Source of the DNA: a virus
Lineage: Duplodnaviria; Caudoviricetes
Length of the DNA: 61,467 nucleotides
Virus record (IMG/VR): IMGVR_UViG_3300007609_000021
Span: 1-61,467 of that record
Reading direction: 5' to 3' (one strand)
Program-made: the position numbers and the translations under genes
Notes under the pieces: model-generated
Told to the model about the DNA's origin: nothing
The model's input: only the letters and a program-made list of their open reading frames with translations
Databases searched by the model: none
Shown here: piece after piece, positions 11,622-34,791 of the stretch
How the letters are laid out: every line of letters starts with the position of its first letter
Numbering within the stretch: position 1 is the stretch's first letter

Positions 11622-11902
11622 TGGGTAGCGGATTAAAAAATAAAAAGAAAAACAATTTGCCAGATAACTATATTGCAAATGAAGAGGAAGCTAAAGCTTA
11701 TAAGTGGTGTTTGCATAACAACATAAGAGTTGGCCTTCAAGCAATAGAGTACGTACAGAACCCAGATAAGTGGAAGATAGCTATAAGTATAGGAGAGAAC
11801 TATAAAGCTTTTCATTTGTCACCTAGCGTATACACAAAAGACAATGTGTGGCAGGAATATTACAAAGCATGCTTATATTATTACAACAAACACAATAAAT
11901 AA
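11609..11902 (+). CDS. Hypothetical protein
   Basis: Coupled ORF. Confidence 0.6.
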   Translation: MGNVMGSGLKNKKKNNLPDNYIANEEEAKAYKWCLHNNIRVGLQAIEYVQNPDKWKIAISIGENYKAFHLSPSVYTKDNVWQEYYKACLYYYNKHNK

Positions 11903-12717
11903 TGAATATTCAAGAAGAGTACAACAAACTAATGTCAGAAGCCTTATATCAAGGCAAAAAGAAATCCGATCGCACGGGTACTGGAACCTTAAGCTTGTTT
12001 GGCAGAACAATTAGACACGATATGAGCGAAGGCTTTCCTTTGCTTACTACAAAGAAAGTTTGGTTCAATGCTGCTTTAACGGAAATCCTATGGATTTTAC
12101 AAGGCAGAACTGATATAACTTATTTGCAACAGCATAAAGTTCACTACTGGGATGCTGATTATGAAAGATCAGGTAGAACAGATAATACTTTAGGCCCTGT
12201 ATACGGCAAACAATGGCGCGATTTCGGTGGCGTAGATCAGCTTAAAAACCTTTTGGCAGATATTAAGACTAATCCTGATTCAAGACGTCTTATAGTTAGC
12301 GCATGGAACCCAATTGAAATGAATGATATGGCATTGCCTCCTTGTCATTACGGTTTTCAAGTTTATATTAATGATGGAGTTATTGATTTAATGTGGCAGC
12401 AACGCTCTGTAGATATATTTTTAGGTTTACCTTATGATATTGCAATGTATGGATTGCTATTAGAATTTTTAGCTAAGGGCAATGGATTAAAAGCTGGTTC
12501 ATTAATTGGACAGTTAGGTGATTGTCATCTTTATAGCAATCATTTAAAACAAGCTTCTGAACAATTAGAAAGATATACGTACGAGTTACCAACAATTAGC
12601 GTTGAACACGGTTTATATCTTGACAACGATGCTATTTTTATGCCAGTACATAATTCAGTATCTTTAAATAATTACAAATCTCACCCTGCAATCAAGGCTC
12701 CTTTGTCTGTAGGATAA
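11902..12717 (+). CDS. thyA: Thymidylate synthase
   Basis: DRTGTGT, FPLLTTKK, MALPPCH, QRSVD and GLPYD motifs. Confidence 0.96.
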   Translation: MNIQEEYNKLMSEALYQGKKKSDRTGTGTLSLFGRTIRHDMSEGFPLLTTKKVWFNAALTEILWILQGRTDITYLQQHKVHYWDADYERSGRTDNTLGPVYGKQWRDFGGVDQLKNLLADIKTNPDSRRLIVSAWNPIEMNDMALPPCHYGFQVYINDGVIDLMWQQRSVDIFLGLPYDIAMYGLLLEFLAKGNGLKAGSLIGQLGDCHLYSNHLKQASEQLERYTYELPTISVEHGLYLDNDAIFMPVHNSVSLNNYKSHPAIKAPLSVG

Positions 12718-12728
12718 AACCAACCAAT

Positions 12729-13526
12729 ATGTTTTACATCTACCATATCCCAGGTAAGAAAATAGGCGTAACACGTAATTTAAATAAACGCGTTACTGAA
12801 CAGCAAGGCTATAAAAAAGGTGAATACGAAATCTTAGAAAAGTCTGAAGATATAAGTTATGTATCTAAAAAAGAATTAGCCTTACAAAAAGCTTATGGCT
12901 ATAAAGTTGATAGACAATTATATTCTGAATTAAATAAAATTAAATCCAATAAAATGAAACTAAACGTAACGGAACAAACAACTACTTTCCCCGTGCCTTT
13001 AAATAAACTTAAAGGACATTTAATGGACAATAAAGGTCTTAAATGGGAAACATCATTAGGTGAGTTTAAAATTTCTAAGAAAACAGTTGAATGGTTAGTG
13101 CACAATGCAAAACCAAGTATGTATAACAACGATAGATGTTTTATTTATAATAAAGCATATCACGAGGCGTTTATAGCTGAGCCAGCTTTAGAGCCTACTA
13201 ATACAAAGTTTGAATTAATAAGACAATGGGCTCAAGAACGAGGAATATATGACAAAGGAGATACAAAAACGCAGTATATTAAATTACTTGAAGAAACTGG
13301 TGAATTGGCTAAGGCAATCCTTAACAATGACAGACCAGAAATTATTGACGCTATTGGGGATTGTGTTGTGGTTCTTACTAATCTGGCCAAGCTCGCTGAT
13401 CTTAATATTGAAGATTGTATCGATAGTGCTTATAACGAGATCTCTGCTAGAAAAGGAAAAATGATTAACGGTACTTTTGTTAAAGAAGAGACTCTTAAGC
13501 ATAAGGAAATAAACTTTCACTTGTAA
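12729..13526 (+). CDS. MazG-like NTP pyrophosphatase with N-terminal GIY-YIG-like extension
   Basis: C-terminal KLLEETGELAKA...IDAIGD; N-terminal FYIYH..KIGVT..LNKR. Confidence 0.7.
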   Translation: MFYIYHIPGKKIGVTRNLNKRVTEQQGYKKGEYEILEKSEDISYVSKKELALQKAYGYKVDRQLYSELNKIKSNKMKLNVTEQTTTFPVPLNKLKGHLMDNKGLKWETSLGEFKISKKTVEWLVHNAKPSMYNNDRCFIYNKAYHEAFIAEPALEPTNTKFELIRQWAQERGIYDKGDTKTQYIKLLEETGELAKAILNNDRPEIIDAIGDCVVVLTNLAKLADLNIEDCIDSAYNEISARKGKMINGTFVKEETLKHKEINFHL

Positions 13527-28200: not shown

Positions 28201-28521
28201 TTAATTACTACTTACGAATATTTCTGAGTTTACTGCAAATAGCTCAGCATAATCTGTTCTTGAGTTCTTCATTGTTACTTCCGCGTAATAACCAAGTAGC
28301 CCGGAAGTGTTTATTTCGTTGTCTTTTCCAAAGAATATAAAGCTATTATCAGTTAATTCACTAACATCACCTGTTGTATTACATGTTATGGTATAGTCAG
28401 ATATAGCTGTGCAGGGCCCAATTTCTTTAATTTCTTCTGAGCTATTTAAATAATAAACTATATCTCCAACTTGTAAAGATACATTTAGCTTAAAATTAAA
28501 TGTTAAAGTTGTATTTGCCAT
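28201..28521 (-). CDS. Small tail structural protein
   Basis: GLLGYYAEVTMKN..AELFAVNSE resembles the C-terminal strands of tail nozzle/stabilisation proteins. Confidence 0.5.
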   Translation of the reverse strand: MANTTLTFNFKLNVSLQVGDIVYYLNSSEEIKEIGPCTAISDYTITCNTTGDVSELTDNSFIFFGKDNEINTSGLLGYYAEVTMKNSRTDYAELFAVNSEIFVSSN

Positions 28522-28555
28522 AGTATTGTTATTACGATTTTTAAAGCATTGTTAA

Positions 28556-30016
28556 TTAAGAATACTTATAGTGTATAAATAGCGCTTTATAAGATTCTCC
28601 TTCAAAAGGTATGGGTCTTCCGTGAGCGCAAACAGCCGATTCATAAAATAATATTTGCCCAGGCGTTAATTCAATTTCATTCCAATGCCCGTTGTGCTCT
28701 TGAATATGCAAAGGCCAATTGTGGTCTTTATAAAGAGGTATTATAACCCCTATATGATGTGTATCTTGCCTATCATAATGATTTTTTAGAAAAGAACCTT
28801 TTGTGTATTCTCTGATCCCATATACAGCGGACTGCTGTAATTTTTTGCCGCACCATAATTCAGCTGATTTTAACAAACTTTGTGCAATATAATTTTTTGC
28901 TTCTTCGCTTAAATTATATAAGTATGTTTTAAATGGTATATAAGTGTCTTTGCCGTCAAAATTTTCTTCTACCTTAGGACTCGTGTTGTTTAACGCCATA
29001 TTAAGTAACTCATTAGGCAATTTCTTAAATACAAAGCCATTATCTGTTACTTTTGGCAACAAATTATTTTTATCTCTAGTTTCAATAACATTTTTATTCG
29101 AAAGCGGGCTGAAATTTCCTACTTCGTGCAAAAATTGTATATATTGATATTGAGCAAGATCTTTTGAAACAGGTATATCCTCACCGTATGGTATTTTATT
29201 AATCCATTCGTATTTACAAAATAAGTCTTTATTTATTTTAGCCGCTAGATCTCTTGTGTTTCCAGCGTCGTGGTATATGGAATTTTGATAAAAATTTTCT
29301 TTTGAAAAATTTGGCCAAGAAAAATTTAAAGAGGAAGGTATTTCAGTTTTAATATTATATTTCCAAAAAGCCCATAATGTTGTCCACATTTCTGCGGTCC
29401 AAGGATTTACCCCCTCTGCATCTGTTTTATTATCTTTATTGTTTTCAGATTTTAAAAGATGATATAACTGGGCGGCTTTGCTATACGCATCACGCCACAC
29501 ATGCAATGGTATGTTGTCAAATATATATTGCGCCCCACCTGCTTGGTCTTCAATTATTTTACTGTTATCAATATCAAACGACTGTAGCATTAGAGGCAAA
29601 TACTTTTCTCCTTTGCTTCTAATTCTTGAAGCATCAAGATAATCTGTTTTGGACATATAAACTTTACCTTTAGGAAAATATCCAATAGGTTTAGTTATCA
29701 TTACGTCTTGGTCGCAAAAAAAATATTGATGTTGTATTTCTTCGGGATATATTTCAAAAAATTTAAATATGCCGTATATTTTAGTTAATGCTAGATATTC
29801 TTTCTCTCCATGGAATGGCAGGTATAAGAATCTTGCTTTAGAGTATTTAGAATGCAATAAACTCCATTCTTTTGACACTCCATTATGGACCATTGTAACA
29901 ATAACATTAATATCCTCCTCCTTAAAGCCGTTTTTTAAACAGCTTTCTATCATCACTTCTGTTTGCCAAGCAAATATTAATTGACTGGACGCACTAGTTA
30001 TTAGTTTCATGGGCAC
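28556..30016 (-). CDS. Fusion: GT95/GT96-like glycosyltransferase plus 2OG-Fe(II) oxygenase
   Basis: N-terminal AWQTEVM, FCDQD (DxD) and WTAEMW; C-terminal YGIREY, HYD, GQILFY and HGR. Confidence 0.75.
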   Translation of the reverse strand: MPMKLITSASSQLIFAWQTEVMIESCLKNGFKEEDINVIVTMVHNGVSKEWSLLHSKYSKARFLYLPFHGEKEYLALTKIYGIFKFFEIYPEEIQHQYFFCDQDVMITKPIGYFPKGKVYMSKTDYLDASRIRSKGEKYLPLMLQSFDIDNSKIIEDQAGGAQYIFDNIPLHVWRDAYSKAAQLYHLLKSENNKDNKTDAEGVNPWTAEMWTTLWAFWKYNIKTEIPSSLNFSWPNFSKENFYQNSIYHDAGNTRDLAAKINKDLFCKYEWINKIPYGEDIPVSKDLAQYQYIQFLHEVGNFSPLSNKNVIETRDKNNLLPKVTDNGFVFKKLPNELLNMALNNTSPKVEENFDGKDTYIPFKTYLYNLSEEAKNYIAQSLLKSAELWCGKKLQQSAVYGIREYTKGSFLKNHYDRQDTHHIGVIIPLYKDHNWPLHIQEHNGHWNEIELTPGQILFYESAVCAHGRPIPFEGESYKALFIHYKYS

Positions 30017-33000
30017 ATGCTTGTAATTGTGTAAGAAATATTTCCAGAGTTAACCTCAGCACCTAAAGTCCAACATATGCCGGACCCATCGTTAACTAAA
30101 ACACTATCTCCTGGGCTATAACCTTTTGCTTTTGCAATATCAGCAAGTTCGCCGCCATCGTTTCTTTCCGCAACATACGCATTAGTAATCCCTGAAGTAG
30201 GCGCTGCTGTTGGAGCGGCGGTAGGAGCCTGCGTTGGAGCCGCAGTCGGGGCAGCAGTTGGAGCCGCAGTCGGGGCAGCAGTTGGTGCAGCAGTTGGTGC
30301 AGCAGTTGGAGGTGGGGTAGGAGCCGCAGTAGGCGCAGCAGTAGGAGCCGCAGTAGGCGCTTGGGTTGGTGCTACACAAGTTCCTGTAATATTATATTGC
30401 CCATTTGCTGTTGTTTGATCTCCAAGGGTCCAACATTGACCGGATCCATCATTTAAAGTTACTAAATCATTTATTTGATACCCCTGTTGTAACCACACAT
30501 AGGCATACACAGCCCCGTCAAATCTTTCGGCTATCCATGAGCTATATGATGGAGCGGTAGGTGCTGCAGTTGGCGCTTGGGTTGGCGCAGCAGTAGGCGC
30601 TGGGGTTGGTGCTGCAGTAGGTGCTGCTGTGGGTTCAGGAGCGCAAGAGCAGGTTGACAAAGCATCTAAATCAATTGTACCTTGCTGACTAGGATCTACG
30701 TCATAGTATTTATAACAATTACTAAAATAACTAAATGTGTCGCTTGTTGTATATGAAGATACCGTACTATATCCATATTGCAATTGAGAAGAATTAGCGC
30801 AGTTTTCAATTATATAGTAATAAACCTGAGGAGCAGTTGGCGCGGCGGTAGGAGCCGCAGTAGGCGCAGCAGTTGGTTCTGGAACACAAGAGGCAACATC
30901 AATAACCGTGCCCGTGTTGTCAATTCTTACTGAAAATGGCGCAGGGCCATTTGAACCAGCGTCATCAATAGCGTACCATTGATTATTGCCTTGCCAATAA
31001 AGGTTTATGCCTGTGCTATTAGATGTAAATCTTGTTCCTACACCAACTTGCGCTAATGTTGAAGCATTAGTTGAATAAATAGGAGATCCTAATATAGACT
31101 CACAAGCTTCTTGAGAGCCGCTGCTGCCAGATCCTTGAGTTGCGTGGGTAGCAAATTCGGCGTTTGGTGTTTCCGTTGGAGCCTCTGTGGGCGCTTCTGT
31201 AGGAGCTTCAGTGGGAGCTTCCGTTGGGGACTCTGTAGGCGCTTCTGTTGGCGGTGGAATATCAGTAGGTGCCGCAGTTGGTGCCACGGTTGGCGGAGGC
31301 GTAGGCTCAATCGGTGTTGGCGCCTGAGTTGGTGCAATTGTAGGGGCAACTGTTGGTGCAACTGTAGGAGCGACTGTAGGGGCTTGGGTTGGCGCTGCGG
31401 TCGGTGCTTCAGTTGGAGCTTGAGTTGGTGCTTCTGTTGGAGCTTGAGTAGGTGCCGCAGTTGGAGCTTCTGTTGGGGCTTCTGTTGGAGCAGGCGTGGG
31501 GGGTATCGTGATATTAGAAACGCTGCCAATTCCTTGAACTGAAAATTCTTTGCTATCAATATTAGAAAGAGTATTTGACACTCCTTCTATATTATTAAAC
31601 CACTTGCCTTCTTTACCTTTAAAGTAAGTTACTTTGCCGGATTGCAAATCAGTTTCTATTGATGTTGCTTGCCATCCGTCAGTAGTTAAGTTTTTACCTT
31701 GCGTTCCCTCGTAAGCTAATGTTTTAAAGTTTTTAACAACTGATGGCTCATTATTAAATATAAACTTTACAGAAGAATCATATTGAGACCCATAAAAATT
31801 ATTAACTCCAGAAGCATGATGTTTCCAAAGCTCAGCATTATTAAATGTAAAATAGTCTCCATTTAAATATAAACCGCTTTCAGGAATAAAACTAAGTCTT
31901 GTAGTCCATCCATCTACGGTTTCAGAAAAAGCTAAACTTTCATCTCCTTCAAAAGATAATATATATTGCCTTGTATGAATATCATAAGAACCAATTATAA
32001 GGCTATTATGGTCTTTTAATTTGTCTCTAAAATATGAATTCATATTCTTACTAGACAACAGTGTTAAACCGTCTCTAGAAAGCCTTAAAACAGCGCCTCT
32101 TGCCTTGTCGGTAAAATATGCTTGATAGCCATAATAAGCAAACGATTCTGGATTTTTTGAAATACCAAATTCACCGCCGTAAGGTACAGCTTGACCAAGT
32201 ACATTATTAGAAGAAACTACATTAGTAGATCCATCCGCATTATATAATGAATCTTTATCTGCTTGTATTCTAAGGATTTTATCTTCGCACAGAGCTATAA
32301 CATCAGTATCTCTAGTATGCAATAGTTGGATTGATCCGTATTCTGGATCTAAGTCTTTTGTGATTGGTTCTGCCGCAGAAAATTGATTTAATCTGTTAAC
32401 TGAATTTCTTGAATTATATAATCCAGACCATATTAAGCCTTGGCTATTTCTAGATCTTTTATATTGTTCAGCCAATACCGTAGAAACTCTAACTTGCTTA
32501 TCCATTTGAACAGCATTGTAATCGTCTCTAATTCTATTGGATTCTACGCCGTTTTGGAAATTGTAGCAATTAAAATACCTTAAGAGATGTGTATCACCAT
32601 ATTCTGAAATATCAAAAGTTTCTTCTGTTTCATAATAAATATCTAAAAAACCTTCGGCTGGTTCTGTTTCAAAAACAGCAGGATCAATGTTATCAACTTC
32701 TTCTCCCTCAACAGGTAAAATTGCAACTGTATTTAATTGGTCGTAATCAACTCCTTGCGATTGAGCAGGTGTCCATTTAGTATATATTGTTCTTGTAAAC
32801 CCATCTGAATAAGTATAAGTTCCTGCGTTATACCATTTATAATTAGTATTAGTTCCATCTACGGTAACAGACCCAGAAGTTATATCTTCTGTAACCAATG
32901 TTCCTTGCGGGTTACTAAAAGCTGTTCCAGAACCATAACCATTTTGCGTAAATACAGCAACATTCCCTGCTCCGGAAACTTCTGAAAAATAAAAATCTTT

Positions 33001-34791
33001 TTCAATATATCCTCCGCCTGAGTCATATATTCTATATTCACCTAAATAGCTGCCGGATGGATAAGAAGCTGTTCCGAAGCTGCTCTCTGGTATTTCTTCG
33101 GCTACGGCATTGTTTGCTACATTAGCTTGATATAAATCATATAATATGCCGTCAATGTCTTCCAGCTTAACAAAAAATCTTCCTGAAGTGTCGTAATTTT
33201 CGTAATCAAAATTTGTTACTGCTGCTACTGCTGTAGGATCAGATGGAGCAACCCCTATAAAATCAGGAGCGCTGGATTCTACTGCTAATGTTTTAAACTT
33301 AGCTAAAGGATTTGCAATGGGTATTGAAGAATTTTGACCTTTTTTAAGCAGTAAAAAATCTCCTTCATTAAATTTATTTATTTCAGTAGATGGTAATGCC
33401 ATCCAAACTTCGCTGCTTTGTAATTTTTCCGGGTTTGGGAATATAGACTCTGCAATTACATTATAATATTCACCTGCAGTATCTTTTATAAAATATTTAA
33501 ATTTATCAAAAGAGTTTGCAGCGCTACTTGGCAGAGTATCGTTCATAGACACAGAAAATTGCTGCGGAGCATTCATTTGCTCAAGATTACCAAAAGGAAC
33601 ATTTATTGAACCAGATCTATTTGATATAACAGGAGTTTGCCTACCATATTTATCTTCAAAGACAATGCCAAATTGATAGGTTCTATCTGATTTTATATGT
33701 TTTCTGTTGCCGCCCCTTGCCTGTAAAGTAATATCAAATTGAGGTTTTATTTCTGCTGTATTTTCTCCAATTTCATAATTACCAAAAATTAATCTATTAG
33801 AGCTTATCTCAACAGCTTTAGCTTTCAAAGGCACGGCATCCCATAGTCTTAACAATTGATCACTTGCAACTATAGAGTATATTTGTTCGCTGGTTAGCTC
33901 GTATGTTTCAGGAAAATCTTCAAGCGACAAAGTTTCAACTACATATATAGATTGATCATCTGATTTTTTCATTAAGACATCAATAGACTCTATATTATTT
34001 ACAGTAGTATCAATGCCTGTTAAAGAAATGGATTTTACAGTATTTTCCATTCCTGTATTATACCCTTTTTTTGCGTTAAATTCAAAAATTCCAGGTAAAA
34101 AAGCAACTTCAGAAAAAGGAGAAAAAACAGAATATTGACCGTTTTTAAATTTCCATCTATAAGCAAATCTTACAAATTTTAATTCAAATAATGGATCTGC
34201 ATTTTCTACTCCACCAGAAGAAGTTAAAGATAAGATTGGAGCGGAAGCTGGTTTTTTCTTGATTAAAACAACATCTTCAGTTGTTAAATCTTGCCAGTTT
34301 TCTTTGTAAAATATCTGGGTATGACTAGTAGTTGGGTTTGGTCTTACTTGATCGCTTTCAAAATATTCTAAATCAATAACGTAAGGTTCGTTTACGTTAT
34401 CTGTTATAGCTAATTGTTTTTCAAAAATAGCTATTCCAGTAATTAAATTGTTTGAAAAATTAAACACAACGTTATTTACGTCTTGTATAATTATAGAAAC
34501 ACTAGAGCCATCATAGGATAACAAGTAGCTTACGGAAGTATCCTTAACTATCCAATATATCTTTTCAGTAGAAGTATCTACTGTACTAGCAATTAATATA
34601 GGGCTTGTAAAATTTATGTTTGAAGCTATTTGAGAGTTTCCAATAATATTTTGTATAGCTCCAGCATCATTACCATCGGTACTTGCTAATTGTATATTAA
34701 GAGCGTCTCTATATTCACCATTTGGTATTAAACGTTCATCTAGGTCTTTATTCATTCGACCCGCGTTGAATAGGTGCTTAATTTCTGGCAT
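30007..34791 (-). CDS. Tail stabilisation/nozzle protein with C-terminal xAPT repeat extension
   Basis: N-terminus GRMNKDLDERLIPNGEYRDALNI; beta-rich body; lies downstream of the ring proteins. Confidence 0.75.
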   Translation of the reverse strand: MPEIKHLFNAGRMNKDLDERLIPNGEYRDALNIQLASTDGNDAGAIQNIIGNSQIASNINFTSPILIASTVDTSTEKIYWIVKDTSVSYLLSYDGSSVSIIIQDVNNVVFNFSNNLITGIAIFEKQLAITDNVNEPYVIDLEYFESDQVRPNPTTSHTQIFYKENWQDLTTEDVVLIKKKPASAPILSLTSSGGVENADPLFELKFVRFAYRWKFKNGQYSVFSPFSEVAFLPGIFEFNAKKGYNTGMENTVKSISLTGIDTTVNNIESIDVLMKKSDDQSIYVVETLSLEDFPETYELTSEQIYSIVASDQLLRLWDAVPLKAKAVEISSNRLIFGNYEIGENTAEIKPQFDITLQARGGNRKHIKSDRTYQFGIVFEDKYGRQTPVISNRSGSINVPFGNLEQMNAPQQFSVSMNDTLPSSAANSFDKFKYFIKDTAGEYYNVIAESIFPNPEKLQSSEVWMALPSTEINKFNEGDFLLLKKGQNSSIPIANPLAKFKTLAVESSAPDFIGVAPSDPTAVAAVTNFDYENYDTSGRFFVKLEDIDGILYDLYQANVANNAVAEEIPESSFGTASYPSGSYLGEYRIYDSGGGYIEKDFYFSEVSGAGNVAVFTQNGYGSGTAFSNPQGTLVTEDITSGSVTVDGTNTNYKWYNAGTYTYSDGFTRTIYTKWTPAQSQGVDYDQLNTVAILPVEGEEVDNIDPAVFETEPAEGFLDIYYETEETFDISEYGDTHLLRYFNCYNFQNGVESNRIRDDYNAVQMDKQVRVSTVLAEQYKRSRNSQGLIWSGLYNSRNSVNRLNQFSAAEPITKDLDPEYGSIQLLHTRDTDVIALCEDKILRIQADKDSLYNADGSTNVVSSNNVLGQAVPYGGEFGISKNPESFAYYGYQAYFTDKARGAVLRLSRDGLTLLSSKNMNSYFRDKLKDHNSLIIGSYDIHTRQYILSFEGDESLAFSETVDGWTTRLSFIPESGLYLNGDYFTFNNAELWKHHASGVNNFYGSQYDSSVKFIFNNEPSVVKNFKTLAYEGTQGKNLTTDGWQATSIETDLQSGKVTYFKGKEGKWFNNIEGVSNTLSNIDSKEFSVQGIGSVSNITIPPTPAPTEAPTEAPTAAPTQAPTEAPTQAPTEAPTAAPTQAPTVAPTVAPTVAPTIAPTQAPTPIEPTPPPTVAPTAAPTDIPPPTEAPTESPTEAPTEAPTEAPTEAPTETPNAEFATHATQGSGSSGSQEACESILGSPIYSTNASTLAQVGVGTRFTSNSTGINLYWQGNNQWYAIDDAGSNGPAPFSVRIDNTGTVIDVASCVPEPTAAPTAAPTAAPTAPQVYYYIIENCANSSQLQYGYSTVSSYTTSDTFSYFSNCYKYYDVDPSQQGTIDLDALSTCSCAPEPTAAPTAAPTPAPTAAPTQAPTAAPTAPSYSSWIAERFDGAVYAYVWLQQGYQINDLVTLNDGSGQCWTLGDQTTANGQYNITGTCVAPTQAPTAAPTAAPTAAPTPPPTAAPTAAPTAAPTAAPTAAPTAAPTQAPTAAPTAAPTSGITNAYVAERNDGGELADIAKAKGYSPGDSVLVNDGSGICWTLGAEVNSGNISYTITSMCP
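30198..31503 (-). repeat. Four blocks of 12-bp (A/E/Q/V)APT tetrapeptide repeats
   Basis: Blocks at about 31166-31503, 30832-30880, 30550-30640 and 30198-30372; synonymous codon variation between units. Confidence 0.92.

What the first reader, a model, noticed from the sequence alone, without database searches (positions are those of the whole stretch)
28556..31503. Candidate phage hydroxyproline O-glycosylation system: enzyme fusion coupled to its Pro/Thr/Ala-repeat virion substrate
Seen: the tail nozzle gene ends in about 500 aa with dozens of xAPT repeats, and its stop overlaps the start (30007-30016) of a gene fusing a DxD glycosyltransferase to a 2OG-Fe(II) oxygenase. Known: plants and green algae hydroxylate Pro in AP/SP/TP-rich proteins with 2OG prolyl 4-hydroxylases, then glycosylate Hyp (GT95 HPAT) or neighbouring Ser (GT96 SERGT). 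Chlorovirus PBCV-1 has a P4H acting on Pro-rich repeats. Inference: one polypeptide does both steps on the tail extension, giving a stiff extensin- or mucin-like glycan stalk. This could provide protease shielding, longer reach, or a mimic of algal glycoprotein that engages glycan-binding receptors of flavobacteria. No nucleotide-sugar synthesis genes are visible, so the donor must come from the host. I know of no description of this in bacteriophages.
Basis: partly seen in the sequence, partly recalled or inferred. Interest (0 to 1): 0.93.

Follow-up and report, generated by a model that had tools for sequence, protein, structure and literature searches.

The report
Phage tail linker hydroxylation-glycosylation cassette
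A marine flavobacterial phage has inserted into its tail-tip gene a cassette of Pro/Thr/Ala-rich linkers plus a two-domain enzyme (sugar transferase fused to an oxygenase) that most likely decorates those linkers, a kind of virion modification not yet described for bacteriophages.

Summary
The crAss-type muzzle gene (30007-34791, minus strand) ends in 500 aa. These hold four (xAPT)n linkers (223 aa, 45 APT) between four small Cys modules. Its TGA overlaps the ATG of a 484/486-aa protein, a DxD glycosyltransferase-like domain (phrog_4417) fused to an HxD...H oxygenase-like domain.

Three cultured relatives lack both the linkers and the enzyme. The cassette splits the ancestral muzzle gene, whose last domain is now ORF 28201-28521.

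- In 80 viral loci with this GT family, the ORF directly upstream carries a poly-Thr/Ser/Pro tract in 54 of 79, against 2 of 79 downstream. Prophages repeat this: 29 of 78 against 0 of 78.
- Only 3 of those 80 loci hold a 2OG oxygenase, and they have the most Pro-rich tracts.
- The oxygenase-like domain fused to a true P4H domain lies beside Pro-rich tracts in 30 of 35 loci. P4H alone does so in 4 of 44.
- The GT family is remotely related to plant Hyp-arabinosyltransferases (HPAT).

Coupling of enzyme and repeat is therefore strongly supported. The chemistry is not shown: Thr may be the sugar acceptor rather than Hyp.

The parts
31510..34791 (-). Muzzle (distal tail) protein core, residues 1-1094
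   Evidence: Pfam crAss_MUZ 33.4 bits (residues 13-348) and crAss_MUZ_C 46.3 bits (997-1069), both above the cut-off of 27. phrog_14478 E 4.2e-130. tblastn finds homologues in 87 phage records of Flavobacterium, Cellulophaga, Tenacibaculum and Maribacter.
31168..31509 (-). Linker 1, (xAPT)n, residues 1095-1208
   Evidence: Residue map. 12/24/48-nt arrays lie in 31171-31491. Part of the Pfam PT repeat match.
30886..31167 (-). Module A, residues 1209-1302, bounded by Cys1230 and Cys1302
   Evidence: Non-repetitive stretch between linkers. No family was found for it.
30829..30885 (-). Linker 2, residues 1303-1321
   Evidence: 12-nt array at 30832-30873.
30643..30828 (-). Module B, residues 1322-1383, four Cys
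30553..30642 (-). Linker 3, residues 1384-1413
   Evidence: Arrays at 30557-30627.
30376..30552 (-). Module C, residues 1414-1472 (ERxDG...C...ITGTC type)
   Evidence: Homologous to module D. jackhmmer seeded with module D finds this ~60-aa module in 22 proteins, all of them the ORF directly upstream of a GT homologue in viral loci.
30196..30375 (-). Linker 4, residues 1473-1532
   Evidence: 12-nt array at 30196-30357, 13.5 copies.
30010..30195 (-). Module D, residues 1533-1594; the stop codon follows at 30007-30009
30007..30010 (-). ATGA overlap of the muzzle stop and the enzyme start
   Evidence: Read directly from the sequence.
29117..30016 (-). Enzyme N-domain, residues 1-300: DxD glycosyltransferase-like; DQD at 29705-29713
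   Evidence: phrog_4417 E 3.9e-41. D102, D104 and H249 are invariant in 37 sequences. Relatives are fused to GT2 and GT6 domains. Relative P0015 hits Pfam HPAT at E 1.3e-4, 21.9 bits, cut-off 23.9. hhalign of the family profile against the HPAT-positive N-terminus of P0097 gives probability 79.9%, E 1.4e-5.
28559..29095 (-). Enzyme C-domain, residues ~308-486: Fe(II)/2OG-oxygenase-like; HYD at 28772-28780, distal His465 at 28622-28624
   Evidence: R402, Y404, H413, D415, W434, E459, H465, R467 and H482 are invariant in 38 sequences. phrog_2954 E 8.4e-15. PF13640 weakly matches this same domain in relatives P0022 (E 0.0035) and P0095 (E 6e-4).
28201..28521 (-). 106-aa ORF: the split-off last domain of the ancestral muzzle protein
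   Evidence: It matches positions 144-238 of phrog_18548, whose positions 4-121 match muzzle residues 952-1061. By eye, it resembles the last ~110 aa of the single muzzle proteins of phi38:1, elemoA_7-9A and Panino; no pairwise score was computed.

Best explanation
A cassette of about 3 kb sits inside the muzzle (tail-tip) gene of a flavobacterial crAss-type podophage. It adds to the muzzle protein four small Cys modules strung on (xAPT)n linkers. Directly behind, translationally coupled, it encodes a bifunctional enzyme that modifies those linkers in the host cytoplasm before assembly.

The C-terminal Fe(II)/2OG-oxygenase-like domain hydroxylates linker prolines. The N-terminal GT-A-type DxD glycosyltransferase adds sugar from a host nucleotide-sugar to linker hydroxyls. 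The acceptor is most probably the Thr of each xAPT unit, which is this GT family's usual target. Hydroxyproline is a possible additional or alternative acceptor.

The result would be a stiff, extended, protease-resistant glycosylated stalk that holds the terminal modules away from the tail tip.

Shown here: the anatomy, the conserved catalytic motifs, the insertion, and the gene-neighbourhood statistics. Inferred: both catalytic activities, the acceptor, the sugar, and the benefit to the phage.
For: 1. Coupling. There is an ATGA stop/start overlap. Only the muzzle protein in the window has a tract.

2. Presence and absence together. Cultured relatives phi38:1, elemoA_7-9A and Panino keep the gene order but have no tract (at most 9 T/S/P residues in any 15-aa window of the muzzle homologue) and no hit to the GT, C-domain or P4H profiles. 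Their muzzle ends in the domain that here is the separate 106-aa ORF.

3. GT family and tract.
- In the best 80 of 593 confirmed IMG/VR loci, the ORF at -1 has at least 12 of 15 T/S/P residues in 54 of 79. The figures elsewhere are 2 of 79 at +1, 2 of 73 at +2, 12 of 60 at -2 and 7 of 43 at -3.
- At 60% identity this is 17 of 25 clusters at -1, against 3 of 25 at +1 to +3.
- Replication in 80 prokaryote-genome loci: 29 of 78 at -1, 0 of 78 at +1, 0 of 76 at -2.
- Three cultured phages checked by hand show the same: phiFL1A major tail protein, Lactobacillus phage Iacchus, Chryseobacterium phage MA9V-3.

4. Oxygenase and proline.
- Of those 80 viral loci only L053, L054 and L075 hold a 2OG oxygenase. 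They have the three highest Pro fractions in the tract (0.36, 0.51, 0.41). The other 77 have none, at Pro <= 0.22. None of the 80 genome loci has one.
- Of 79 loci with a P4H-type gene, the P4H+C-domain form has a tract within three ORFs either side in 30 of 35, and P4H alone in 4 of 44. A GT lies in 19 of the 35: the N-domain family in 5 and a GT32-like family in 14.

5. Domain fusions (Rosetta stone). P0097 combines HPAT (37.1 bits, cut-off 23.9), the PF11397 GlcNAc transferase (E 3.9e-50), PF13640 and the C-domain in one chain. Its P4H part matches solved prolyl 4-hydroxylases (5iax, E 3.5e-23).

6. Shared substrate module. The same ~60-aa module as window modules C and D occurs in 22 of the ORFs directly upstream of a GT.
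Against: - No chemistry was measured and no structure could be predicted.
- The enzyme has no Pfam or NCBIfam hit.
- Profile searches of PDB sequences gave nothing significant for either domain.
- hhalign of the C-domain against P4H domains is not significant (probability 2.1%). Its oxygenase fold therefore rests on motifs and two weak PF13640 matches.
- The link between C-domain and tract is not universal. It is 0 of 16 in the loci, which are giant-virus P4H+C-domain genes and a phage lineage with a stand-alone 186-aa C-domain.
- The window phage has no canonical P4H at all.
- The GT family also occurs as 500-770-aa chromosomal proteins of Chitinophaga, Sphingobacterium and Pedobacter with no tract nearby.
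- 20 of 80 viral loci show no tract within three upstream ORFs.
- Many loci are related to one another, so the raw counts overstate independence. At 70% identity the contrast is 4 of 6 didomain clusters against 1 of 16 single-P4H clusters.
Confidence: 0.55

Rival explanations
1. Strict two-step pathway. The oxygenase domain makes hydroxyproline, and the GT domain uses that Hyp as its obligatory acceptor. This would parallel plant P4H + HPAT, Skp1 PhyA + Gnt1, or Lys to Hyl to glycosyl-Hyl in LH3/L230.
For: - Hydroxylase and GT are fused in one chain in the order GT then oxygenase. L230 and the human LHs combine the same two kinds of domain, with the L230 LH domain at the C terminus (passages of PMC5802723).
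- The GT family is related to HPAT.
- P0097 joins two GT families to P4H and the C-domain. By recall, both GT families are Hyp-directed.
- The fusion clade sits on a very long stem branch (2.15 changes per column) in the GT tree. This is compatible with a change of acceptor after fusion.
Against: - The GT's relatives act next to poly-Thr tracts without Pro or oxygenase.
- Oxygenase-linked GTs arose at least 3 times inside that Thr-linked family: 4 changes on the tree, of which 3 are forced by well-supported branches. This is easier to explain if the acceptor stayed Thr.
- Thr is kept in every xAPT unit.
Confidence: 0.25
2. The C-domain is not a hydroxylase of the linker. It might be a non-catalytic polyproline-binding domain that recruits the GT to Pro-rich linkers, or it might act on the sugar or on another substrate. 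Only Thr O-glycosylation would then occur.
For: - It has no significant similarity to any solved or curated oxygenase.
- It very often accompanies a complete P4H domain: 31 of 110 C-domain proteins. This could mean an accessory role.
- The window phage lacks a P4H.
Against: - H413, D415, H465, R467 and R402 are invariant over 38 diverse sequences, which is hard to explain for a mere binding domain.
- PF13640 aligns over its whole length with this domain in P0095 and P0022.
- 73 of 110 such proteins carry it without a P4H.
Confidence: 0.12
3. The enzyme modifies phage DNA (base hydroxylation plus glycosylation) or host envelope glycans, and its position next to the repeat is incidental.
For: - Phages do glycosylate DNA, and thymidylate-synthase homologues can supply hydroxylated bases (abstract and section 25 of PMC13326640).
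- The window carries a ThyA-type gene next to a MazG-like gene.
Against: - The gene lies inside the structural module, overlapping the muzzle stop.
- The neighbourhood statistics tie the family to tract-bearing structural genes.
- The ThyA homologue passes the thymidylate synthase equivalog TIGR03284 at 292.9 bits, cut-off 108.
- The DNA arabinosyltransferases of that paper resemble GT4-type enzymes, not this family.
- No TET/JBP-type Pfam hit.
Confidence: 0.04

Closest known systems
Collagen lysyl hydroxylase/glycosyltransferases: human LH3 (PLOD3) and mimivirus L230
   Same: One polypeptide combines a glycosyltransferase domain with a C-terminal Fe(II)/2OG hydroxylase domain and acts on a repetitive structural protein. 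In L230 this is a viral protein, and an HxD...H triad with Arg and Tyr binds 2OG (passages of PMC5802723; abstract start of PMC6082870).
   Different: - The residue there is Lys in Gly-X-Y collagen. Here the linkers have almost no Lys (0.8%) and are Pro/Thr/Ala.
- No sequence similarity is detectable: PDB profile searches were empty.
- The host here is a bacterium, not an amoeba.
Plant and algal hydroxyproline-rich glycoprotein pathway: P4H plus HPAT (GT95)
   Same: Pro-rich repeats are hydroxylated by a 2OG enzyme and then O-glycosylated (abstract start of PMC8012813). The GT family here is a remote relative of Pfam HPAT.
   Different: - The window's own GT domain does not reach any Pfam threshold.
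- Most family members sit beside poly-Thr rather than Pro tracts.
- The process would be cytoplasmic and soluble, not carried out by Golgi type II membrane enzymes (the latter point is recalled).
Skp1 prolyl hydroxylation and glycosylation in protists (PhyA + Gnt1 and later GTs)
   Same: A cytoplasmic, O2-dependent prolyl hydroxylase makes the attachment site for a glycan (abstract start of 10.1101/764241). The Pfam family PF11397 is fused to P4H and to the C-domain in P0097. That PF11397 is the Gnt1 family is my recollection.
   Different: That system modifies a single Pro in one regulatory protein, not hundreds of residues in a virion linker. The window's GT belongs to another family.
Mycobacteriophage virion glycosylation (Freeman et al. 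2023)
   Same: Phage-encoded GTs put glycans on C-terminal extensions of capsid and tail tube subunits. I saw this only as a passage and citation in PMC12619734; the paper itself is not held.
   Different: Whether the GT families are the same could not be checked. No hydroxylase is mentioned in the passage I saw. The target here is a tail-tip protein of a podophage of Bacteroidota.
Chlorovirus PBCV-1 prolyl 4-hydroxylase
   Same: A virus-encoded P4H. The P4H domain that accompanies the C-domain in P0097 matches the solved chain 5c5t at E 4.5e-10. That 5c5t is the PBCV-1 enzyme is recalled.
   Different: The window's oxygenase-like domain is not of this family: there is no PF13640 match anywhere in the 61-kb genome.

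Membership tests
crAss-type muzzle protein (Pfam PF25731 / PF25729) | Matches to the crAss_MUZ and crAss_MUZ_C models above the gathering score | tested here: met
   33.4 and 46.3 bits, cut-off 27.
PT repeat (Pfam PF04886) | Match above the gathering score | tested here: met
   65.4 bits, cut-off 26.2, 6 stretches.
GT-A metal-dependent glycosyltransferase | Conserved DxD motif | tested here: met
   D102-Q-D104 in the window. Both Asp are invariant in 37 family members, and H249 is also invariant.
GT-A metal-dependent glycosyltransferase | Rossmann-like GT-A fold | not testable with these tools
The Atlas holds no model.
HPAT / GT95 (Pfam PF23452) | Match above the gathering score of 23.9 bits | tested here: not met
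   The window's domain has no hit at E <= 0.1. Relative P0015 scores 21.9 bits (E 1.3e-4) and P0017 12.7 bits; that is 2 of 37 members. P0097 scores 37.1 bits, and its N-terminus aligns to the family profile at hhalign probability 79.9%. This amounts to remote kinship, not membership.
HPAT / GT95 (Pfam PF23452) | Transfer of arabinofuranose to hydroxyproline | not testable with these tools
   Needs an enzyme assay.
Fe(II)/2-oxoglutarate oxygenase | HxD/E...H iron triad | tested here: met
   H413, D415 and H465 are invariant in 38 sequences.
Fe(II)/2-oxoglutarate oxygenase | Basic residue that binds the 2OG C5 carboxylate | tested here: inconclusive
   R467 and R402 are invariant, but neither is at the usual +10 position after the distal His. 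K477 is not conserved.
Fe(II)/2-oxoglutarate oxygenase | Double-stranded beta-helix fold | not testable with these tools
   No structure prediction was possible. PDB profile searches returned nothing below E 0.3.
Prolyl 4-hydroxylase type (Pfam PF13640) | Match above the gathering score of 27 bits | tested here: not met
   No hit for the window protein and none in the whole 61-kb genome. The same domain in P0022 (18.7 bits) and P0095 (21.1 bits) stays below the cut-off. hhalign against P4H domains gives probability 2.1%.
TET/JBP-type DNA base dioxygenase | Match to the Pfam model | tested here: not met
   The Pfam-A scan of the enzyme at E <= 0.1 returned nothing. That the copy of Pfam-A used holds a TET/JBP model is my recollection.

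The most novel reading that the evidence does not exclude
Bacteriophages run a cytoplasmic hydroxyproline O-glycosylation pathway. Its glycosyltransferase shares ancestry with the plant Hyp-arabinosyltransferases (GT95). Its hydroxylase is a so far unrecognised peptidyl-prolyl hydroxylase family, the C-domain, which is also widespread in giant viruses next to canonical P4H. In this phage the two are fused, and Hyp in (xAPT)n is the sugar acceptor. This would give the first extensin- or mucin-like glycoprotein stalk on a bacterial virus.
Probability: 0.3. Interest if true: 0.92.

Novelty: new variant of a known kind. Interest (0 to 1): 0.82.

Why it matters
- It would give a function to phrog_4417, a large phage family of unknown function. 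The exhaustive search found 2309 representatives at E <= 1e-3 for the fusion's two domains together. The proposed function is O-glycosylation of poly-Thr or Pro/Thr linkers on tail and other virion proteins, in phages of Firmicutes, Bacteroidota and marine hosts.
- It would add prolyl hydroxylation to the known modifications of bacteriophage virions, and would tie that modification to oxygen availability.
- It would define a new oxygenase-like domain that marks Pro-rich viral structural proteins.
- It links phage enzymes to the plant HPAT family.
- Glycan coats on tail tips bear on host recognition, on phage stability in sea water, and on immune recognition of therapeutic phages.
- The prediction can be tested directly in cultured phages: Enterococcus phiFL1A gp50/gp51, Lactobacillus phage Iacchus gp072/gp073, and Chryseobacterium phage MA9V-3.

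Tried and rejected
Structure and fold
- The ESM Atlas gave only weak leads for the C-domain. The nearest named clusters were PF13640 at 0.86, below the 0.9 mark, and there was no structure.
- PDB sequence and profile searches found nothing for the whole enzyme (best E 0.38) or for the N-domain profile (no hits). The C-domain profiles gave only chance-level hits. The best of these was a 31-residue match of the distal 'HGR' region to gamma-butyrobetaine dioxygenase at E 0.8. I treat it as a lead only.
- hhalign of the C-domain against the phage P4H domains aligned only the HxD region (probability 2.1%).

Searches for further loci
- Alignment queries A3 and A4 had no stretch conserved enough to scan with.
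- P0003 and P0097 found no viral loci.
- The single metagenome scan gave one locus, from the lineage of L084-L088.

Readings I corrected or dropped
- I first read P0012 and P0018 as P4H + GT + C-domain. Local profile searches showed they are (P4H + C-domain) twice over.
- I expected the ~1600-aa ORFs upstream of the GT in L004-L011 to be muzzle homologues. BLASTP shows they are not. They share only the ~60-aa module.
- The DNA-modification reading was considered and set aside.

Literature
- Searches listed no paper on prolyl hydroxylation or Hyp glycosylation of bacteriophage virion proteins, and none on poly-Thr tracts paired with this GT family.
- Freeman et al. 2023 could not be read.

Full report
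**What is there**

The window is a whole virus record of 61,467 bases, 96% complete by CheckV. The minus-strand structural module includes a 1594-aa ORF (30007..34791). It is followed by a 486-aa ORF (28556..30016), a 106-aa ORF (28201..28521), and ORFs of 216, 485 and 2464 aa.

The 1594-aa protein is a crAss-type muzzle protein. It matches Pfam crAss_MUZ (33.4 bits) and crAss_MUZ_C (46.3 bits) and phrog_14478 at E 4.2e-130. tblastn of its first 1090 aa finds homologues in 87 phage records, all from Flavobacterium, Cellulophaga, Tenacibaculum or Maribacter hosts except one uncultured record. A flavobacterial host is therefore likely.

**The repeat**

After residue 1094 the composition changes to A 17.7%, T 15.5% and P 14.4%. 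There are 45 APT here, against none in the first 1080 aa. The stretch has four linkers (114, 19, 30 and 60 aa) between four globular modules of 59-94 aa, each with two to four Cys.

At DNA level the linkers are 12-nt arrays with only 69-88% matches. G+C rises to 0.451, against about 0.33 on either side. The peptide is thus better conserved than the DNA. Modules C and D are homologous to each other.

**The enzyme**

The muzzle TGA overlaps an ATG as ATGA.

*N-domain, residues 1-300.* It matches phrog_4417, a family of unknown function, at E 3.9e-41. Longer relatives carry extra GT2 and GT6 domains above Pfam's cut-offs, or radical-SAM/SPASM domains. Weaker hits are to a methyltransferase (24.3 bits, cut-off 26.3) and to GT25.

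The window's own domain has no Pfam hit. Its relative P0015 (36% identical) matches the hydroxyproline O-arabinosyltransferase model HPAT co-linearly over residues 9-242, at E 1.3e-4 and 21.9 bits (cut-off 23.9). P0017 matches weakly. That is 2 of 37 members. The family profile aligns to the HPAT-positive N-terminus of P0097 with hhalign probability 79.9% and E 1.4e-5, with the DxD in register. I read this as remote kinship with GT95, not membership.

It has no Pfam hit either. PF13640 matches the same domain weakly in P0022 and P0095.

PDB profile searches and hhalign against phage P4H domains are not significant. The oxygenase assignment therefore rests on motifs and context.

**An inserted cassette**

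Three cultured relatives (Cellulophaga phi38:1, Flavobacterium elemoA_7-9A, Maribacter Panino) keep the gene order: adaptor-like gene, a 283-290-aa gene, muzzle, small structural protein, ~200 aa, ~450-550 aa, giant protein. They have no tract (at most 9 T/S/P residues in any 15-aa window of the muzzle homologue) and no hit to my GT, C-domain or P4H profiles.

Their muzzle proteins run straight from the MUZ_C region into a final ~110-aa domain. In the window this final domain is the separate 106-aa ORF. phrog_18548 positions 4-121 match muzzle residues 952-1061, and positions 144-238 match the small ORF. By eye the sequences resemble each other. So about 3 kb (roughly 28522-31509), carrying linkers, modules and the enzyme gene, sits inside the ancestral gene and splits it.

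**The GT family travels with Thr-rich tracts**

tblastn of the enzyme finds N-domain homologues in 81 cultured-phage records, and none of them covers the fusion. In the three I opened, the gene directly upstream ends in or contains a poly-Thr run. These are the phiFL1A major tail protein, a 129-aa Iacchus protein, and a 429-aa Chryseobacterium phage protein.

In IMG/VR, 593 of 600 pattern matches encode a relative, and the best 80 loci were kept. I made crude ORF calls and defined a tract as at least 12 of 15 T/S/P residues. Counts by ORF position relative to the GT gene:

| Position | With tract |
|---|---|
| -3 | 7 of 43 |
| -2 | 12 of 60 |
| -1 | 54 of 79 |
| +1 | 2 of 79 |
| +2 | 2 of 73 |
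| +3 to +8 | 2 of 233 |

At 60% identity, 17 of 25 clusters have the tract at -1 and 21 of 25 within -1 to -3, against 3 of 25 downstream. The median gap between the two genes is 11.5 nt. The threshold is conservative: the window's own Ala-rich tract scores only 11.

The pattern repeats in 80 loci of prokaryote genomes, mostly prophages of Bacillaceae and lactobacilli and some Bacteroidota. It is 29 of 78 at -1, 0 of 78 at +1 and 0 of 76 at -2.

Results that go against a simple rule:
- 20 of 80 viral loci have no tract in three upstream ORFs.
- The 500-770-aa chromosomal forms in Chitinophaga, Sphingobacterium and Pedobacter have none.

The ~60-aa module of the window (C and D) recurs in 22 of the upstream proteins. 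Those proteins are otherwise unrelated to the muzzle. Module, linker and GT therefore seem to move together.

**Oxygenases come with proline**

Among the 80 viral GT loci, local profiles find a 2OG oxygenase in three only.
- L053 and L054 have a 185-aa PF13640 protein at +1 (Pfam E 4.3e-17).
- L075 has a 405-aa PF13640 + C-domain protein at +2.

These loci have the three highest Pro fractions in the tract (0.36, 0.51, 0.41). The other 77 have none, at Pro <= 0.22. By my arithmetic, picking exactly those three by chance has odds of 1 in 82,160. L053 and L054 are one lineage, however. None of the 80 genome loci has an oxygenase.

A second crAss-type lineage (L084-L088, L108) has this gene order:
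1. a ~2000-aa protein with (PT)n;
2. a 418-aa PF13640 + C-domain protein;
3. a 206-aa Gly_transf_sug (DXD) glycosyltransferase;
4. a 523-aa protein with a PT-rich tract and crAss_MUZ_C.

Starting instead from P4H-type genes (79 loci):
- The didomain P4H + C-domain has a tract within three ORFs either side in 30 of 35. P4H alone does so in 4 of 44.
- 19 of the 35 also hold a GT, from the N-domain family in 5 and a GT32-like family in 14.
- At 70% identity this is 4 of 6 clusters against 1 of 16.

Against the link: the 16 C-domain loci (giant-virus didomain genes and a phage lineage with a lone 186-aa C-domain) show no tract nearby.

Among 157 retrieved relatives the architectures are as follows:

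| Architecture | Proteins |
|---|---|
| C-domain without P4H or GT | 73 |
| GT alone | 47 |
| P4H + C-domain | 28 |
| GT + C-domain (the window's own cluster, P0002, P0003) | 3 |
| C-domain twice | 3 |
| (P4H + C-domain) twice | 2 |
| P0097 | 1 |

P0097 unites HPAT (37.1 bits), the PF11397 GlcNAc transferase (E 3.9e-50), PF13640 and the C-domain. Its P4H part matches solved prolyl 4-hydroxylases, for example 5iax at E 3.5e-23. P0131 joins a borderline VHL beta domain (21.7 bits, cut-off 21) to a C-domain. By recall, VHL binds hydroxyproline.

**Which hydroxyl takes the sugar?**

A tree of 61 GT domains (IQ-TREE quick search; 30 near-identical rows removed beforehand at 90% identity) needs 4 changes of the label 'oxygenase in the locus', and 3 are forced by well-supported branches. 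The fusion clade is sister to poly-Thr-linked GTs that share the ~60-aa module. It sits on a very long stem branch of 2.15 changes per column.

Repeated recruitment of oxygenases into a Thr-linked family, together with the Thr kept in every xAPT unit, favours Thr as the acceptor, with Pro hydroxylation as a parallel modification. The long stem, the HPAT kinship and the fusion itself keep the strict Hyp-acceptor pathway open. I put 0.55 on the general dual-modification reading with Thr as the likelier acceptor, and 0.25 on the strict sequential reading.

**Rivals**

A DNA-modifying role is unlikely.
- The gene is embedded in the structural module.
- The window's ThyA homologue passes the thymidylate synthase equivalog (292.9 bits, cut-off 108).
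- The known DNA arabinosyltransferases resemble GT4-type enzymes (section 25 of PMC13326640).

A non-catalytic C-domain is hard to square with its invariant triad.

**Comparison with what is known**

The closest working analogues are the bifunctional lysyl hydroxylase/glycosyltransferases LH3 and mimivirus L230. They combine the same two kinds of domain (the L230 hydroxylase domain is likewise C-terminal) but act on a different residue, with no detectable similarity. Other analogues are the plant P4H/HPAT pathway and Skp1 hydroxylation and glycosylation.

Virion O-glycosylation by phage GTs is known from mycobacteriophages, seen here only through a citing passage. My eight literature searches that bear on this listed no paper on prolyl hydroxylation or Hyp glycosylation of a bacteriophage virion, or on this GT family. 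The library is incomplete, and supplements were closed.

**Verdict**

The enzyme-substrate coupling is strongly supported by comparative genomics. The chemistry is inferred. This is a new variant of a known kind of system, hydroxylation-linked O-glycosylation of repetitive structural proteins, in a new host range and with new enzyme families.

Noticed in passing
window 28201-28521 (-): The 106-aa ORF is the detached last domain of the muzzle protein. In phi38:1, elemoA_7-9A and Panino it is still part of the single muzzle gene. How it rejoins the tail tip here is unknown.
   Followed up: partly
window 11902-13526 (+): A thymidylate synthase gene (TIGR03284, 292.9 bits) lies directly before a 265-aa protein with a MazG-type pyrophosphohydrolase region. 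Ribonucleotide reductase subunits are nearby. Some phage ThyA homologues make hydroxylated cytosine (PMC13326640), but this one scores as an ordinary ThyA.
   Followed up: partly
window, one of the 44 ORFs (not resolved which): The Pfam inventory shows a Cpn60/TCP-1 chaperonin family hit (E 7.5e-57), which suggests a phage-encoded GroEL-like protein. It also shows Laminin_G_3, Sialidase N-terminal, He_PIG and TIG domains, probably in tail fibre proteins.
   Followed up: no
L109-L188 (prokaryote genome loci), ORF at position -6 from the GT: In 12 of 39 loci the ORF six genes upstream of the GT also carries a poly-Thr tract. This may be a second glycosylated virion protein, such as the capsid protein, in Bacillaceae prophages.
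   Followed up: no
L141-L188, Chitinophaga, Sphingobacterium and Pedobacter chromosomes: The GT family occurs there as 500-770-aa fusion proteins with no Thr/Pro tract nearby. These probably act on a different, unknown acceptor.
   Followed up: no
P0097 (1190 aa) and P0131 (587 aa), metagenomic proteins: P0097 unites HPAT-like, PF11397 GlcNAc-transferase, P4H and C-domain parts in one chain. P0131 joins a borderline VHL beta domain to a C-domain. Their organisms are unknown.
   Followed up: partly
L075:6479-9046 and L054:2964-6289: The oxygenase-containing GT clusters carry further glycan-tailoring genes. L075 has an O-fucosyltransferase fused to a carbamoyltransferase. L054 has a GT1/GT4 fused to a methyltransferase, plus a GT9-like protein. 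This suggests complex, decorated glycans.
   Followed up: no
L099-L103 (viral loci): A phage lineage carries the C-domain alone as a 186-aa protein, with no Thr/Pro tract within 6 kb. Its substrate is unexplained.
   Followed up: no
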